64,000 nucleotides of DNA from Pocillopora damicornis (Eukaryota), in the NCBI RefSeq assembly GCF_003704095.1, contig NW_020845872.1:1-64000 (forward strand), read 5' to 3'. Position numbers: made by a program. Positions 54,001 to 64,000 of this stretch are shown one piece after another (the stretch's first letter is position 1; each line of letters begins with the position of its first letter).

Positions 54001-57000
54001 AGTACCCCCGTGTGACAAATAAAATTTAATATCCAAAGAATCTTGGACAAACATCTGACCATCTCTTGAAATATCAGCAAAATCTGGGTCGGTCGAGAAA
54101 CAGTGATAAATGAATGACAAAAAATTTTTTGTTTTTCAACAGTTCATCAACAACAAAGTTTCTGGAAAGTGACGTCAGCAACGAGCAAGTCCGAGAACTA
54201 GACGAGTTGATCTTGAATTGGTTGAGCGAGAATAAAGAGCAAAATGTCTTTTATCCACATGCCAGGGTTTAAAACTCTATTCGAGCGAATGTTTTCATAG
54301 ATTTAAGAAACGTTCAGTTACGTCGTTAACAAAGATGCCATCTTCTAGCGTTGAAGATTATACCAAATTTGATGGATTGCTGTCAGGGCTACAGTGCATT
54401 TTGAAACAAAGATAAAGTTTAAGCCCGTTCTACAAGTCCTTCTGTAGGATTTGCACGTCTCAGTGGTTCATAAAGAATGAGAGACAGTGTTTCCGTTTAC
54501 CACGAAGAGTAGTTATGCTGTTGAGTGTTTGTTATCGTTTCTGTTGTGATAACTCAAATTATTTATTAGTACAAAGGCGATACAAGACCCAATAAAAATC
54601 ATAACTTCAAACTTGTGTTCTGCCGAGGGTTTTAACAATCATGATATAAGAAACATTATCAAAGTCTTTCTTTGTATAGGAATTTTGATTACTTGGCAAA
54701 TTTTACGTATCATAAACAGCCCAATCAGAATTCATGAAAGATCGCCTCTTTCTCGGAATCCTAAATTCCGAGAATGTGATTGAGTTTCCTAGAAACGTGA
54801 GTAACGCAGGAGCCCGTTACTTTGGTAATGGGCCCCTGACTGACGTCAATGTTTAATATGCCTCGATAACCAATCAGCTTGCAGATTAATCGCTTCACAG
54901 TAAGGTCATTCTGTCATGTAACTTGTTTTCCGCTCTAGAGTGAAAACTTTCTCAGAAATCTGTCGTGTGTTTCACGCAGTTAGTAGTTAACATTTGGTTT
55001 GGTTGAAAGTCAACAACTAAAGGAATTAGGCAGGCTGCCGCATTAAGCTCTAATTTCGTCACTGCATGGTTTACGATATTAGCAGGTTGAACGTTCATGG
55101 CTAGTTTCAACTTCAGCTCGAGAGGTGATCATTATCATCAACTAAGCGCACAAATTCAGCAAAAGTTTCAGGATAATCGTCAAACGAGTGAAGTATTTGA
55201 TCGGAAGAATCGATGGAGAAAGGAAATTGAAGACTTAGTGAAGACCCTTTACCCGTCATGTCGACTCGTTCTTTCCGGCTCGTCCGCAAACGGGTTTGGC
55301 AGCATTCATAGTGATATCGACCTGGTTTTGTGCTTTGAAGGGGCAGCAGTGACTGGACCTTCCATGTTGAGGAGAATAGAGTCGCTTTTTGCGAGTAACC
55401 GTCGTCGTTTTCAAACAGAGGTAGTACCACACCTTATGTGAGTTGCATAATTTTTATAAATAATACGAGCAATCAGGAAAATATCCGCTCGTATAATGCA
55501 TAAAACCATGAGATAAGGGACTTGTTATTCCCCTGCCATTTCATTTTATAATATTTTGACTTCCAGTTTTTTTAAATACATACGGTCTAATCTTGTGCAC
55601 TGTATGGATCACATAACGCGTGTGTGAAAGACGAAGGCAACACAAACGAAACCATTAAGAGTTCTTGATGACTTATAAAAGAAACTGTTGCCCCTAATAG
55701 TTCCATGCACGAAATTTCGAGCCTAAAACACGGAAACAAATAAAAGATTGAATCGTTTAGCCGGGGGCCATTTTGTTACTCCGCTTTCAGTCCGCATTTT
55801 TGCCCCGTGCCATCGCATATTTTGCGGGTTCTATGGTCCTTATTTGGTGAAATGGTGTAACTGTCGAAGAGTATGTAATAGTATTTGAGCACAGCTTGAA
55901 TGTCCGCGACTAAGACAATCAGATTCCTACGTAAGATATGCATGACAAACTAGTACGTCGTGTCTTTTCCCGCGTTTTGAAACACTTTAGATTATGATTT
56001 AATTTTTTGTTTGTGGGTTTCCTCTATAAAGCATCAAAAATGACTCAGGGGGAGATCAAAGAAAAAAACTGGTTCTTCTCTTTCGTCATATTGATCAGAA
56101 TTTTTAATTCGAAGCTTCCTCAACGTGTCTTTCACTTCGGTTTCTACCGATCCCGAGGTTAGATTGTGCTTTAATCTTTAACCTAATTGGCATACGCAAG
56201 AGAATATCAAAAGTTGATGTTCTCTCGGCAAACGATATAATTTTTATTAAAACCAATTTCAAGATGGTGTCAGCGCCGAGTGAGAGATATTTTTGATTGA
56301 AAAAAAAAAACTAGACAAGTAAACATTTGATATGCAGCAGTAAATTTTTTTAAAGTCAACTTTGAATTTTGAACAATCCCCAGGTGATTCCAAACGCACG
56401 AGTTCCTATCATCAAGCTCAAAGATAGGGAGAAATCAATTGAAACTGATATCAGTGTGGAAAATTGGACCAGTGTGAGAAACGCCTTCGTTCTAAAATGT
56501 TACTCCGAGTGTGACACAAGGGTGAGACCGCTGGTCATGGTCATCAAACTGTGGGCTCAACGTGCAGGAATCACCGATGCAAAACTCAAAAGACTTGCAG
56601 GTACGAAATCTGCCGATTGTTAAAAAAGTGGCGGATTTGAGGTTGAATAAAGGGGGTTAATTTCTAGAGAAAATTTTGGTGCTGCGTGGGGGGATCTTTC
56701 AAGACAATTTGGTGTCATCAACCGAATTGACATTATAAACTGGCCACCGTAAAGAGTTTCTTTTGCTAACGCTTGCAACGTCAGCTATATTAAACTCTTA
56801 ACGGTGGTCAATTTACATTATCAACGCAGTTGATAAAACCACATGATCTGATGAAAGGTTGACTGGTTTGACTCGTTTACAAGCTCAATAATACAAATAA
56901 AAAAAAAGTCCCTTCATTTTAGTTTAGTTATGTGTAGCTTTTCACATATCACGATGCGAGTAACATATGACTGACTCTTACAAGACAGGCAGACATGTAA

Positions 57001-63000: not shown

Positions 63001-64000
63001 GGGGGAATCCCAGAAGCGGCACAGGTTTATACGAGAGATCTTAATAGTCCACATGTCTCCTCACACATAGGCCCCCAATGCTAATAAACTTGTATCAATC
63101 AGGTTATAAGTTCCAACTGCTGTCTTTATAAAAAACAAATAACAATTAAAAAAGTCTCCAAGTTTCCGTGATAAAGGTTAATTCAAGTTCTTGTCAGGAG
63201 TCGCGGGTAGCGTTAGAGTATAGTTTGAATTACTCCAAGATACAACACAATACCCCCTTCGCTTACAGTCTTCTCATCCTTCTCTTCCGACCTTCAACAA
63301 TGTTAAATGCTTCTAGATACATTACCTGGAAGCCTCTTAAACTTGGCTCCGATAATTTGAGCCTTTTTCGCCCATAGTTTGATCACAATTGTCAACGGCT
63401 TCACTCTTAAGTCACACTCAGAGTAGCATTTTAATAGGAAGGCGTTCGTCAAGCTGCTCGAATTCTCCAAAGTGATGTCCGTTTCAAACGAGTTCTCTTT
63501 ATCCTTGAGGATAATTATGGGGTCTTTGGCATTTGAAACAACCTGAAAGTAGTTACAATTACTCTCTGTTAACTACGCCTTAGTTCTGTGGCCGTTTTAT
63601 AGATGTGCCATGTTCAATTATGTAGAATTACACTTTCTCGTTCTTTCAACGCTCTTTTACCCTTCTCTCCCCCCTCTCAAGGCAAAAATTGTAGATTGCA
63701 TTTTGTTTACTATATACAAACAGGAGCAGCTGGTTCAAACTGCTTCTTTTTTCTAATTGGATCACCAGGAGATCTACAATCTTCCGCCCAAATATCGTTC
63801 GATCCAAACAGCCACCATGAATGAGTATTTCTGGATTATACCAGAACGTGATATATAAAAAACAAACAGTGGATGCGGATATTTATGCGTGGCAATCATC
63901 TCAAGCTAAAAGAGATACCAAATTAAATTATCAATTGGTATAACAAACACTGATACCTCTGTTTCAAAGCGGCGAGGCTTGCGACTGAAAAGCGATTCGA

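What the first reader, a model, noticed from the sequence alone, without database searches (positions are those of the whole stretch)
56384..63542. Non-canonical NTP pocket and nucleotide-recognition motif: tail chemistry may not be plain poly(A) or poly(U)
The family motif 'NDA..GTLSSY' reads TDAKLKRLAGF (A), TNARLHRLAGF (B) and IGAKFKRLPGF (C), so the phosphate-binding Ser and base-stacking Tyr become Gly-Phe. The 'NT' dyad is 'NA' in all three. The recognition loop is EDPSDGGNVTR, EDPTDEGNVTR and EDPTDGGNVTR. It lacks the His that confers UTP preference in Cid1/TUT4/7 (EDPFxxxHN) and also differs from GLD-2 (EEPFDGTNTAR). The catalytic GS and DxD..D residues are intact in A and B. Precedent exists for unusual specificities in this family (RDE-3/MUT-2 poly(UG), fungal CutA C/U tails).
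Basis: partly seen in the sequence, partly recalled or inferred. Interest (0 to 1): 0.7.

Follow-up and report, generated by a model that had tools for sequence, protein, structure and literature searches.

The report
Coral GLD-2-like enzymes, remodelled nucleotide pocket
Three neighbouring coral genes encode compact relatives of the RNA-tailing enzyme GLD-2 whose nucleotide-binding pocket carries an unusual set of substitutions shared by stony corals and sea anemones, but nothing yet shows that they add anything other than ordinary adenosine tails.

Summary
The window comes from a Pocillopora damicornis-like stony coral, not a human. It holds three intact three-exon genes: A on the plus strand, B and C on the minus strand. 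C's first exon runs off the window end. All three encode roughly 325-334 aa GLD-2/TENT2-type nucleotidyl transferases.

The substitutions are not typical of invertebrate TENT2. Among 161 retrieved family members with letters at that dipeptide, 121 have Ser-Tyr and 30 have Gly-Phe. Of the 30, 29 are short cnidarian proteins and 1 is from a nematode. Named Gly-Phe members are all stony corals or sea anemones, including Nematostella 'NvGLD2-like'. Sea anemones also keep a canonical long GLD-2, so this is an old paralog clade.

The catalytic residues and the GLD-2 fold are kept, and the paralogs show purifying selection.

The inference of exotic tail chemistry is not supported:
- Phe at the stacking position occurs in ATP-specific mitochondrial PAP and in the U-adding MEAT1.
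- The uridine-selecting His is absent, with no insertion relative to GLD-2.

The most likely reading is an active, purine (ATP)-preferring tailing enzyme. Specificity cannot be read from sequence. Interest is moderate.

The parts
55097..55420 (+). Gene A exon 1 (108 codons, ATG to phase-0 donor); holds GS...DxD at 55277-55324
   Evidence: Pfam PF22600/PF01909; 92.6% identical to P0002 residues 1-108
56384..56600 (+). Gene A exon 2 (72 codons plus 1 base). Third catalytic Asp at 56441-56455, Asn-Ala dyad at 56477-56488, pocket motif TDAKLKRLA at 56573-56599, first base of the split Gly codon at 56600
   Evidence: PF22600; PDB best hit GLD2, 4e-13
57139..57587 (+). Gene A exon 3 (last 2 bases of the Gly codon, Phe at 57141-57143, 148 codons, stop). 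Recognition loop EDPSDGGNVTR at 57456-57488
   Evidence: PF03828; PDB best hit GLD2, 3.2e-22
60516..60827 (-). Gene B exon 1 (104 codons); GS...DxD at 60612-60659
   Evidence: 99% identical to P0254 (P. verrucosa XP_066028741.1) residues 1-104
60140..60356 (-). Gene B exon 2. Third Asp at 60285-60299, Asn-Ala dyad at 60252-60263, motif TNARLHRLA at 60141-60167, split Gly base at 60140
   Evidence: 100% identical to P0254 residues 105-176
59300..59748 (-). Gene B exon 3 (Phe first whole codon; loop EDPTDEGNVTR at 59399-59431; stop)
   Evidence: PF03828; 100% identical to P0252 residues 517-664
63957..64000 (-). Gene C exon 1, last 14 codons only (..ESLFSRKPRRFETE). The rest, including GS/DxD, lies beyond the window end
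   Evidence: 100% identical to P0252 residues 99-112
63326..63542 (-). Gene C exon 2. Third Asp at 63471-63485, Asn-Ala dyad at 63438-63449, motif IGAKFKRLP at 63327-63353, split Gly base at 63326. Asp at the rnGLD-2 Val264 place lies within 63519-63533
   Evidence: 100% identical to P0252 residues 113-184
62465..62916 (-). Gene C exon 3 (Phe first whole codon; loop EDPTDGGNVTR at 62564-62596; stop)
   Evidence: PF03828; 98% identical to P0013
58135..58274 (.). 12-base minisatellite (11.7 copies) in the spacer between the convergent 3' ends of A and B. It is a neighbour, not part of the genes
   Evidence: seen as repetitive ORFs

Best explanation
A, B and C are a tandem array of an old paralog clade of the GLD-2/TENT2 family, found here only in stony corals and sea anemones. 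The proteins are compact (about 325-334 aa) and consist of the catalytic and central (PAP-associated) domains only.

They are most likely active, template-independent RNA 3'-nucleotidyl transferases that work like GLD-2:
- The two Asp of DxD and the third Asp hold the metals.
- The Ser of GS and the conserved Lys (Arg in B) hold the triphosphate.
- The incoming nucleotide's ribose and base stack on the Phe that replaces Tyr.
- The Asn of the dyad reads the 2'-OH.
- A GLD-2-length recognition loop without the U-selecting His leaves room for a purine.

The likeliest product is therefore A (or A with some G) added to RNA 3' ends. Lacking any RNA-binding extension, the enzymes probably depend on partner proteins.

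The clade-wide changes are Ser-Tyr to Gly-Phe, Gly-Thr to a basic pair Lys/His-Arg/Lys, Glu to Asp, Phe to Ser/Thr, and Thr-Ala to Val-Thr in the loop. In stony corals Thr to Ala also occurs in the dyad. Together they form a co-inherited, conserved re-fit of the same pocket rather than decay.

Shown: the gene structure, family, fold, conservation, distribution and residue states. Inferred: activity, ATP preference, any compensation of the lost Ser by the new basic pair, and the need for partners.
For: Family and fold:
- Pfam PF22600 and PF03828 were found on the exon pieces (7 of 8 pieces matched).
- The PDB best hits are mammalian GLD-2 for exon 3 (3.2e-22), exon 2 (4e-13) and the full-length ortholog P0002 (7.2e-47).
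- The AlphaFold model of P0002 has pLDDT 94.7 and pTM 0.93. Its best Foldseek matches are mouse and rat GLD-2, with TM 0.85-0.91 and rmsd 1.8-2.3 A over about 321 columns.

Catalytic residues: they are kept in A, B and (third Asp) C, and in the 17-18 clade members with letters at those columns out of 18-19, the odd ones being fragment models.

Selection: the paralogs are 55-59% identical. Synonymous sites are saturated (pS 0.77-0.82) against pN 0.25, the frames are intact, and 6 of 6 introns are canonical.

Clade:
- A neighbour-joining tree of 113 proteins recovers the 23 cnidarian Gly-Phe proteins as one split (138 of 200 bootstraps). The stony-coral Lys-Arg type is recovered in 200 of 200.
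- Named members are Stylophora, Oculina, Pocillopora, Orbicella, Montipora, Porites, Acropora, Actinia and Nematostella.

Expression:
- Full-length relatives sit on 1.2-2.9 kb contigs that are too short to hold the introns.
- The Nematostella member P0171 has the termini encoded by the 'Nv_GLD2-like' primers of PMC10284499. That paper detected it by RT-PCR at 10 and 40 days post fertilisation, not maternally.

A-preference:
- No His and no insertion at the T439/N440 place.
- Human Gld2 prefers ATP 83-fold, and rnGLD-2 uses ATP > GTP >> UTP, CTP.
- Phe and a branched hydrophobic residue at the two changed positions match ATP-selective mtPAP.
Against: - No activity, tail or substrate data exist for any member.
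- In rnGLD-2, Ala mutants of the pocket residues listed by the authors, including Ser330, Tyr331, Asn321 and Asp322, had compromised activity, Thr441 being the only exception. The coral proteins differ at several of these places at once.
- The Asn321/Asp322 places, nearly fixed as N-D in Ser-Tyr-type proteins (N in 109 of 120, D in 94 of 120), are variable in the clade: T-D, T-N and I-G in A, B and C. That fits a changed way of reading the base or sugar.
- The His rule has exceptions: U-adders without His, and A-adders or mixed adders with it.
- Gene C carries Asp where rnGLD-2 has Val264, a residue whose mutation lowered activity.
Confidence: 0.5

Rival explanations
1. The co-ordinated pocket changes give the clade a different nucleotide preference, such as G-rich, C-containing, mixed or alternating tails, so that these enzymes write a tail type not yet described in cnidarians.
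For: Nine columns, most of them at pocket places named in the literature, are each well conserved within both groups but differ between them. The main ones, with fuller counts:
- Position 178: T in 103 of 121 against R in 18 of 25.
- Position 289: E in 117 of 121 against D in 28 of 28.
- Position 296: T in 103 of 121 against V in 26 of 28.
- Position 297: A in 113 of 121 against T in 24 of 28.

The Asn321/Asp322 places are freed from constraint. Asp322 matches the yeast PAP residue that contacts adenine N6.

The family has precedents for unusual specificities. CutA prefers C (abstract of PMC7498324 in the listing). MUT-2 adds poly(UG) and NPOL-1 has broad specificity (passages). Sequence does not predict specificity.
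Against: - Each single change has a precedent in enzymes with plain A or U specificity.
- Loop length and the conserved Asn and Arg are as in GLD-2.
- GLD-2 is the closest relative by sequence and by fold, ahead of CutA (4.8e-26 against 7.2e-47).
- No direct evidence of any kind exists.
Confidence: 0.2
2. They are uridylyl transferases despite lacking the His, like the His-less U-adders Cid16, PUP-3 and F43E2.1.
For: - Preston et al. list U-adding enzymes without the His.
- The acidic pair of the loop (Asp289 and Asp292 in P0002 numbering) is kept. It corresponds by motif to the Cid1 acidic residues that hold the waters reading uracil N3 (the correspondence is my inference).
- TUT4 and TUT7 are the next best PDB hits after GLD-2.
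Against: - No His at or beside the T439/N440 place.
- rnGLD-2, with the same loop length, uses little UTP.
- The Thr that helps read the ribose in Cid1 is lost in stony corals.
Confidence: 0.1
3. They are weakened or non-catalytic relatives, either regulatory or scaffold proteins or enzymes with relaxed sugar discrimination. The reason would be that three hydroxyl contacts to the NTP have been lost: the Ser to the gamma-phosphate, the Thr to the 2'/3'-OH, and the Tyr hydroxyl.
For: - Ala mutants at the Ser330 and Tyr331 places compromised rnGLD-2.
- Cid1 T172 is proposed to help tell UTP from dUTP, and it is Ala in 15 of 24 clade members.
- Gene C has Asp at the Val264 place.
Against: - All metal-binding and GS residues are kept across the clade over a deep split, which pseudoenzymes usually do not show.
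- Sea-anemone and Acropora members keep the Thr, so its loss does not define the clade.
- mtPAP works with Asn-Phe at the same places.
- A new basic pair sits 3-4 residues upstream.
Confidence: 0.1
4. They do not tail RNA at all but make free oligo- or cyclic nucleotides, in the manner of OAS/cGAS-type enzymes.
For: Only the shared Pol-beta superfamily fold, the small size without RNA-binding modules, and lineage-specific tandem duplication.
Against: - Pfam, PDB and Foldseek all place them in the Cid1/GLD-2 group with a PAP-associated domain. No OAS or Mab-21 family matched.
- The Asn that docks the RNA -1 base in TUT7 and rnGLD-2 (Asn284 place) is kept in A, B and C.
Confidence: 0.03

Closest known systems
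GLD-2 / TENT2 (mouse 6lbj, rat 6lbk; C. elegans 5jnb, 4zrl)
   Same: - Best hit by sequence and by fold.
- Same domain pair, catalytic GS/DxD/D, Lys312, Asn284, loop length, conserved loop Asn and Arg, and no U-selecting His.
- No RNA-binding domain.
   Different: - Only about 31-32% identical.
- No long N-terminal region (325-334 aa, against 651 aa for the sea anemone's canonical GLD-2, P0041).
- Pocket motif ..[KH][RK]L[APS]GFA in place of ..GT[LI]SSY[SA], and loop EDP[ST]D.GNVTR in place of EEPFD..NTAR.
- It is a paralog, not the ortholog.
NvGLD2-like of Nematostella vectensis (NvERTx.4.205371; XP_001634038.3 = P0171)
   Same: - Member of the same Gly-Phe clade: 328 aa..HKLSGFA, EDPTDRTNVAR.
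- It is the only member with published data, namely RT-PCR expression at 10 and 40 dpf alongside a neuronal marker (PMC10284499, passages).
   Different: It belongs to the sea-anemone/Acropora type, which keeps the Asn-Thr dyad and has His-Lys instead of Lys-Arg. The paper reports no activity and does not mention the motif in the passages I read.
Mitochondrial poly(A) polymerase (chicken 5a2v/5a30; human 3pq1)
   Same: It has Phe at the stacking place (Phe372), a non-Ser residue before it (Asn371, which binds the gamma-phosphate) and a branched hydrophobic residue (Ile480) at the Thr441 place, and it is ATP-selective. This shows that the coral residue states are compatible with plain poly(A) synthesis.
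   Different: It is a far more distant relative (1.6e-19 against 7.2e-47 for GLD-2), is dimeric and has extra domains. The likeness is at single positions only.
Cid1, TUT4, TUT7, URT1 (uridylyl transferases)
   Same: Same fold and catalytic core (TM 0.72-0.81). The roles of the pocket residues were defined here: S90, K193, K197 and S211 for phosphates, Y212 for stacking, N171 and T172 for the 2'-OH, H336 for uracil O4.
   Different: The coral proteins lack the His and have Gly-Phe and Asn-Ala. In the retrieved set a His in the loop was seen in 2 long proteins only (P0134 and P0164).
CutA (C/U-adding) and MUT-2/RDE-3 (poly(UG))
   Same: Same family. They are precedents for specificities outside plain A or U (listing; passages).
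   Different: CutA is a weaker match than GLD-2. MUT-2 did not come back as a named hit in any search here, so no likeness to it was tested. Per it has a His, which the coral proteins lack.

Membership tests
Cid1/GLD-2-type non-canonical ribonucleotidyl transferases (TENTs) | G[GS] x9-13 DhDh motif plus a downstream third Asp (as worded) | tested here: met
   - A has GSSANGFGSIHSDIDL plus ETD.
- B has GSSANGFGSTDSDIDL plus ESD.
- C has the third Asp (ETD) in the window. Its GS/DxD lie outside the window but are present in P0252.
Cid1/GLD-2-type non-canonical ribonucleotidyl transferases (TENTs) | Central palm domain plus PAP-associated domain with a type II recognition motif | tested here: met
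   PF22600 on exons 1 and 2 of A and B. PF03828 on exon 3 of A, B and C, all above the curated cut-offs. The 55-aa ORF piece of C exon 2 alone matched nothing.
Cid1/GLD-2-type non-canonical ribonucleotidyl transferases (TENTs) | Bilobal Pol-beta/PAP-associated fold | tested here: met
   The model of ortholog P0002 has pLDDT 94.7. TM is 0.85-0.91 to GLD-2 and 0.72-0.83 to Cid1, TUT7, URT1 and CutA. The model is of a database ortholog, not of the window's own joined exons.
Canonical TENT2/GLD-2 orthologs | Closest relative is GLD-2 | tested here: met
   GLD-2 is first in three PDB sequence searches and in Foldseek.
Canonical TENT2/GLD-2 orthologs | Pocket motif N-D-A-x-x-x-T-[LI]-S-S-Y and N-T dyad, as seen in the retrieved family | tested here: not met
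   At the dipeptide, 121 sequences have SY, 30 have GF, 4 have SF and 6 have other states, out of 161 with letters. A, B and C are GF. At the dyad the count is NT 107, NA 15 and NS 11. A, B and C are NA.
Canonical TENT2/GLD-2 orthologs | Recognition loop E-E-P-F-[DE]-x-x-N-T-A-R | tested here: not met
   EDPSDGGNVTR, EDPTDEGNVTR and EDPTDGGNVTR. The length, Asn and Arg are kept, while four positions differ.
Canonical TENT2/GLD-2 orthologs | One-to-one orthology with bilaterian GLD-2 | tested here: not met
   - Actinia has both a canonical 651-aa GLD-2-like protein (P0041) and a short Gly-Phe one (P0034).
- Nematostella has NvGLD2 and NvGLD2-like.
- The Gly-Phe clade is a separate split (138 of 200 bootstraps).
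Terminal uridylyl transferases (Cid1, TUT4/7 type) | His in the recognition loop at the Cid1 H336 place | tested here: not met
   No His, and no inserted residue relative to GLD-2, in A, B, C or any of the 28 clade members with letters there. Some U-adders lack this His, so this lowers the possibility but does not exclude it.
OAS/cGAS-type nucleotide-signal synthases | OAS1_C or Mab-21 domain | tested here: not met
   No such Pfam family at E <= 0.01 on any exon piece. No such entry among the listed rows of 39 PDB sequence hits and of at least 500 Foldseek matches.
Any TENT specificity class (A, U, C, UG, mixed) | Nucleotide actually added | not testable with these tools
   No tail data are available, and sequence alone is not decisive.

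The most novel reading that the evidence does not exclude
Stony corals and sea anemones keep, beside their ordinary GLD-2, a second compact GLD-2-derived enzyme lineage. In it the most conserved nucleotide-contacting residues of the family were exchanged as a set. The lineage was then triplicated in tandem in stony corals. On this reading it writes a distinct 3' tail, either a different base preference or a relaxed sugar choice, on a distinct set of RNAs. This would be a cnidarian-specific layer of RNA 3'-end marking, possibly in late-developing neural or somatic tissues rather than in the germ line.
Probability: 0.17. Interest if true: 0.7.

Novelty: new variant of a known kind. Interest (0 to 1): 0.42.

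Why it matters
Ser-Tyr was the state of 121 of the 161 family members retrieved here, and it is treated in the structural papers as the phosphate contact and stacking platform. A whole animal lineage has replaced it, together with neighbouring pocket and loop residues, and has kept the replacement under selection. That makes it a natural experiment on how this enzyme family holds and chooses its nucleotide.

If the clade simply adds A, it shows that the motif is more replaceable than mutagenesis of rat GLD-2 suggested. It would also warn against reading specificity from these residues. If the clade adds something else, it would be a new tail type in early-branching animals.

For coral genomics it also clarifies annotation. 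The genes are named 'GLD2-A-like', 'GLD2-B-like' or 'GLD2-like' as if they were orthologs, and in one public P. damicornis model two of them are fused.

Tried and rejected
- **Pocket superposition.** Superposing the pocket on NTP-bound Cid1, GLD-2 or mtPAP was not possible. Structure prediction returns no coordinates and none were in /data. Only whole-fold matches were obtained.
- **Other family members' residues at the Ser-Tyr place.** I wanted to see which residues Trf4 (3nyb), MEAT1 (3hiy), mtPAP (5a2v) and Cid1 carry there, by direct alignment. These chains were hits but ranked below the five alignments shown. For MEAT1 and mtPAP I relied on statements in papers. Trf4 stayed unchecked.
- **First tree script.** The first neighbour-joining script timed out with no output. 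It was redone with a faster script.
- **Paper search.** It was badly framed, because any 2 of its 5 terms sufficed. None of the 15 listed papers contains 'GLD2', so it says nothing.
- **Residue-name searches.** Searching the Cid1 review and Lunde 2012 with three-letter residue names found nothing. One-letter names worked.
- **Range beyond stony corals and sea anemones.** The profile search scored only the 7,998 candidates sharing most words. It returned 26 proteins at E <= 1e-30, and the named ones came from stony corals and sea anemones plus one fungal protein at 1.8e-35. This is weak evidence for absence elsewhere. P0035 and several other short Gly-Phe proteins are unnamed.
- **Virus-like stretch.** Pfam found no viral domain on 108 open frames of at least 75 aa in 1-55000, and none in the ORFs of 55000-64000. 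An Atlas look-up of the largest unexplained frame gave no usable hit. The virus-like stretch named by the operators was therefore not located, and nothing was done with it.
- **Pseudogenes rejected.** The frames are intact, the splice sites are canonical, and pN/pS is about 0.3 with pS saturated.
- **Human origin rejected.** The best hits are coral proteins at up to 100% identity.
- **Further copies in the window rejected.** tblastn with each exon of A found only A, B and C.
- **Not used or not seen.** Supplementary files of the papers were not seen. The alignments in the supplements of Chung 2016 and Ma 2020 may list more residue correspondences.

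
Full report
**What is in the window**

Base composition (GC 0.33-0.42) and the protein matches show a stony-coral genome, not a human one. The exons of genes B and C are 98-100% identical to Pocillopora proteins. A P. damicornis record, RMX42922.1 (P0252), is 100% identical over C's partial exon 1, C exon 2 and B exon 3. Gene A is 89-93% identical to a Stylophora pistillata protein, P0002.

The region 55097-64000 holds three genes of the same kind. I read them from the DNA and checked them by script.
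- A is on the plus strand: 55097-55420, 56384-56600, 57139-57587.
- B is on the minus strand: 60827-60516, 60356-60140, 59748-59300.
- C is on the minus strand: exon 1 is cut by the window end (64000-63957), then 63542-63326 and 62916-62465.

All 6 of 6 introns are GT..AG. Exon 2 is 217 bases in each gene and ends one base into a Gly codon, which exon 3 completes.

I searched the model exon by exon and left the joined step out. The exon pieces line up end to end with database proteins. For A the ranges are 1-108, 109-180 and 182-end of P0002 and P0001. For B they are 1-104, 105-176 and 178-325 of P. verrucosa XP_066028741.1. This confirms the splice model without my joining anything. tblastn with each exon of A finds no further copy in the window.

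**The observation**

These are the pocket motif ending in Gly|Phe, the Asn-Ala dyad and the three recognition loops. GS...DxD and the third Asp are intact in A and B. C has the third Asp. Its GS/DxD lie beyond the window, but they are present in P0252.

The canonical comparison comes from tool output. In a gapless stretch, rat and mouse GLD-2 read ..indasrgtlssyslvlmvlhylq where the Stylophora ortholog reads ..itdaklkrlagfavvllvihylq. They read veepfdgtntar where it reads ledpsdggnvar (for exon 3 of A itself).

Using the numbering of the rat structure paper and the same alignment, the coral residues fall as follows:
- Gly and Phe fall on Ser330 and Tyr331.
- The Thr/Ile and Asp/Asn/Gly before them fall on Asn321 and Asp322.
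- The Ala of the dyad falls on Thr291.
- The loop Asp falls on Glu434.
- The loop Val falls on Thr441.

The catalytic Asp279, Asn284 and Lys312 places are kept, with Arg at the Lys place in B.

**How common the substitutions are**

I collected 21 proteins from the word-index search. I added the best 150 of 607 hits from the exhaustive representative search with exon 3 of A (149 were new). I aligned all 170 to P0002.

At the Ser-Tyr dipeptide, 9 sequences have no letters. Of the other 161, 121 are SY, 30 are GF, 4 are SF, and 6 have other states. The sample is ranked by likeness to a GF query, so it is biased towards GF.

The 30 GF proteins are 29 short cnidarian proteins plus one nematode protein. 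The nematode protein is from Ditylenchus destructor and otherwise keeps the canonical Gly-Thr and EEPF.

Grouping by the dipeptide is circular for that dipeptide, but not for the other columns. Those separate the two groups as follows:

| P0002 position | Ser-Tyr group | Gly-Phe group |
|---|---|---|
| 178 | T in 103 of 121 | R in 18 of 25, K in 3 |
| 289 | E in 117 of 121 | D in 28 of 28 |
| 291 | F in 114 of 121 | T in 12, S in 11 of 28 |
| 296 | T in 103 of 121 | V in 26 of 28 |
| 297 | A in 113 of 121 | T in 24 of 28 |
| 142 | T in 103 of 116 | A in 15, T in 4 of 24 |

Some odd letters in the GF group come from fragmentary gene models whose upstream parts are intron read-through. The Asn321/Asp322 places are N in 109 of 120 and D in 94 of 120 in the canonical group, but are variable in the clade.

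**What the clade is**

Named members come from the stony corals Stylophora, Oculina, Pocillopora, Orbicella, Montipora, Porites and Acropora, and from the sea anemones Actinia and Nematostella. A profile search added no named member from elsewhere, but it scored only the 7,998 most word-sharing candidates. Actinia also has a 651-aa GLD-2-like protein with the canonical motifs.

In a neighbour-joining tree of 113 proteins over 281 core columns, the 23 full-length cnidarian GF proteins form one split (138 of 200 bootstraps). The stony-coral type with Lys-Arg (His-Arg in the B-type copies) and Asn-Ala forms another (200 of 200). The sea-anemone/Acropora type, with His-Lys and the Asn-Thr dyad kept, is not resolved as a group (65 of 200).

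The array is old:
- A, B and C are 55-59% identical.
- Synonymous sites are saturated (pS 0.77-0.82) and pN is 0.25.
- Orbicella has B-type and C-type genes with consecutive accession numbers on one 200,735-base contig.

That the split between sea anemones and stony corals is hundreds of millions of years old is recalled knowledge. I did not test it here.

**Published knowledge of the clade**

The Nematostella member P0171 begins and ends with the residues encoded by the 'Nv_GLD2-like' primers in Table 1 of PMC10284499 (passages read). That paper calls it a second GLD2 homolog. By RT-PCR it found the gene most obvious at 10 and 40 days after fertilisation, in step with a neuronal marker. The canonical NvGLD2 is maternal.

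I found no text on the motif or the activity of this clade:
- 'GLD2' with 'Nematostella': 4 papers, 3 listed.
- 'GLD2-like' with 'coral': 0 papers.
- 'RNA polymerase GLD2' with 'coral': 0 papers.
- 'terminal nucleotidyltransferase' with 'cnidarian': 3 papers, none on this.

One search was uninformative. Modepalli and Moran 2017 (PMC5509036; passages read) include cnidarians in a GLD2 tree. The word 'paralog' does not occur in the text.

**What the changed residues do in known enzymes (from papers, passages read)**

In Cid1 (PMC3479196):
- The gamma-phosphate is held by K193, K197, S211 and S90.
- The ribose and uracil stack on Y212.
- N171 and T172 bond the 2'-OH and are thought to tell UTP from dUTP.
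- H336 reads uracil O4.
- In MEAT1 the stacking residue is Phe.

In rat GLD-2 (PMC7470959):
- Ser330 and Tyr331 are matched by the authors to Asn371 and Phe372 of chicken mtPAP.
- Asp322 is matched to the yeast PAP residue that contacts adenine N6.
- Ala mutants of the pocket residues were compromised, except Thr441, whose mtPAP counterpart Ile480 uses its main chain.
- The enzyme uses ATP > GTP >> UTP, CTP and lacks the His.

In chicken mtPAP, N371 binds the gamma-phosphate, and F372 with F224 sandwich the ribose and stack the adenine (PMC4605311). Inserting a His between T439 and N440 turns human Gld2 from ATP to UTP (PMC4931116). Several U-adders lack the His, and some His-bearing enzymes add A, UG or all four bases. 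PAPs and PUPs cannot be told apart with certainty from sequence (bioRxiv 10.1101/422972).

**Reading**

The fold is that of GLD-2. The model of P0002 has pLDDT 94.7 and pTM 0.93. Its best structural matches are mouse and rat GLD-2, with TM 0.85-0.91. Catalysis looks intact, and selection has kept the new pocket.

The loop is of GLD-2 length and has no His. So the best-supported mechanism is an ordinary GLD-2-like, purine-preferring tailing enzyme with a re-fitted pocket.

What remains unusual is that so many nucleotide-contacting places changed together and stayed changed. The Asn321/Asp322 places also lost their constraint, and stony corals lost the ribose-reading Thr. That keeps a changed base or sugar preference alive as a minority reading.

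The idea that the new basic pair replaces the lost Ser contact is inference only.

**Limits**

- No activity or tail data exist.
- The structure is that of an ortholog from the database, not of the window's proteins.
- The residue correspondence to Cid1 is by motif, through the GLD-2 alignment and the papers' statements, not by an alignment that I saw.
- Supplements were closed.
- The virus-like stretch that the operators mention was not located by my scans, and nothing was done with it.
- The N runs were left as they are.

Noticed in passing
window 59300-64000 (genes B and C): The public P. damicornis protein RMX42922.1 (P0252, 664 aa) is a fused gene model. Its first half is gene C and its second half is gene B, joined across the spacer. 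P. verrucosa and P. meandrina records give B as a separate 325-aa protein.
   Followed up: partly
window 63519-63533 (gene C exon 2): Gene C has Asp at the place of rnGLD-2 Val264. That place is Val in 112 of 115 Ser-Tyr-type and 18 of 20 Gly-Phe-type proteins, and its mutation lowered rat GLD-2 activity. P0252 shares the Asp, whereas the closely related P0013 and P0012 read Val there.
   Followed up: partly
window 58135-58274: A 12-base minisatellite, 11.7 copies and 95% matches, lies between the convergent 3' ends of A and B.
   Followed up: no
window 22794-23579 and 25809-26573, + strand: Two long open frames of 262 and 255 aa lie about 2 kb apart. Both look like CLIC/GST-type proteins. The first has Pfam GST_N and CLIC-like_N. 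The second has no Pfam hit, but its Atlas features score 0.95 and its structure gives TM 0.85 to CLIC clusters. They appear to be a tandem pair of single-exon genes.
   Followed up: partly
window 3287-4818; 17829-18056; 33082-33411; 35464-35718 (-); 41969-42349 (-): Exon-sized frames carry PAN, EGF and fibrinogen_C, cyclophilin, MGC-24/CD164-like, profilin and LSm domains. These are ordinary host genes upstream of the array.
   Followed up: no
window 9546-10394 (-), 7622-8368 (+), 5094-5603 (+): Open frames of 283, 249 and 170 aa have no Pfam match, and the first has no usable Atlas hit. No viral domain was found in any of the 108 frames scanned in 1-55000, so the virus-like stretch named by the operators was not located.
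   Followed up: partly
first half of the window: Four runs of 100 N (400 N in all). They were left as they are.
   Followed up: no
related proteins P0151 and P0043 (Ditylenchus): Two plant-nematode GLD-2-like proteins have Gly-Phe or Gly-Ile at the Ser-Tyr place in an otherwise canonical motif. Four other retrieved proteins have Ser-Phe. The position therefore changes independently in other lineages.
   Followed up: no
related locus in Orbicella faveolata (proteins P0269, P0239, P0238): C-type and B-type genes carry consecutive accession numbers on one 200,735-base contig. The tandem arrangement therefore appears to be shared with a distant robust coral.
   Followed up: no
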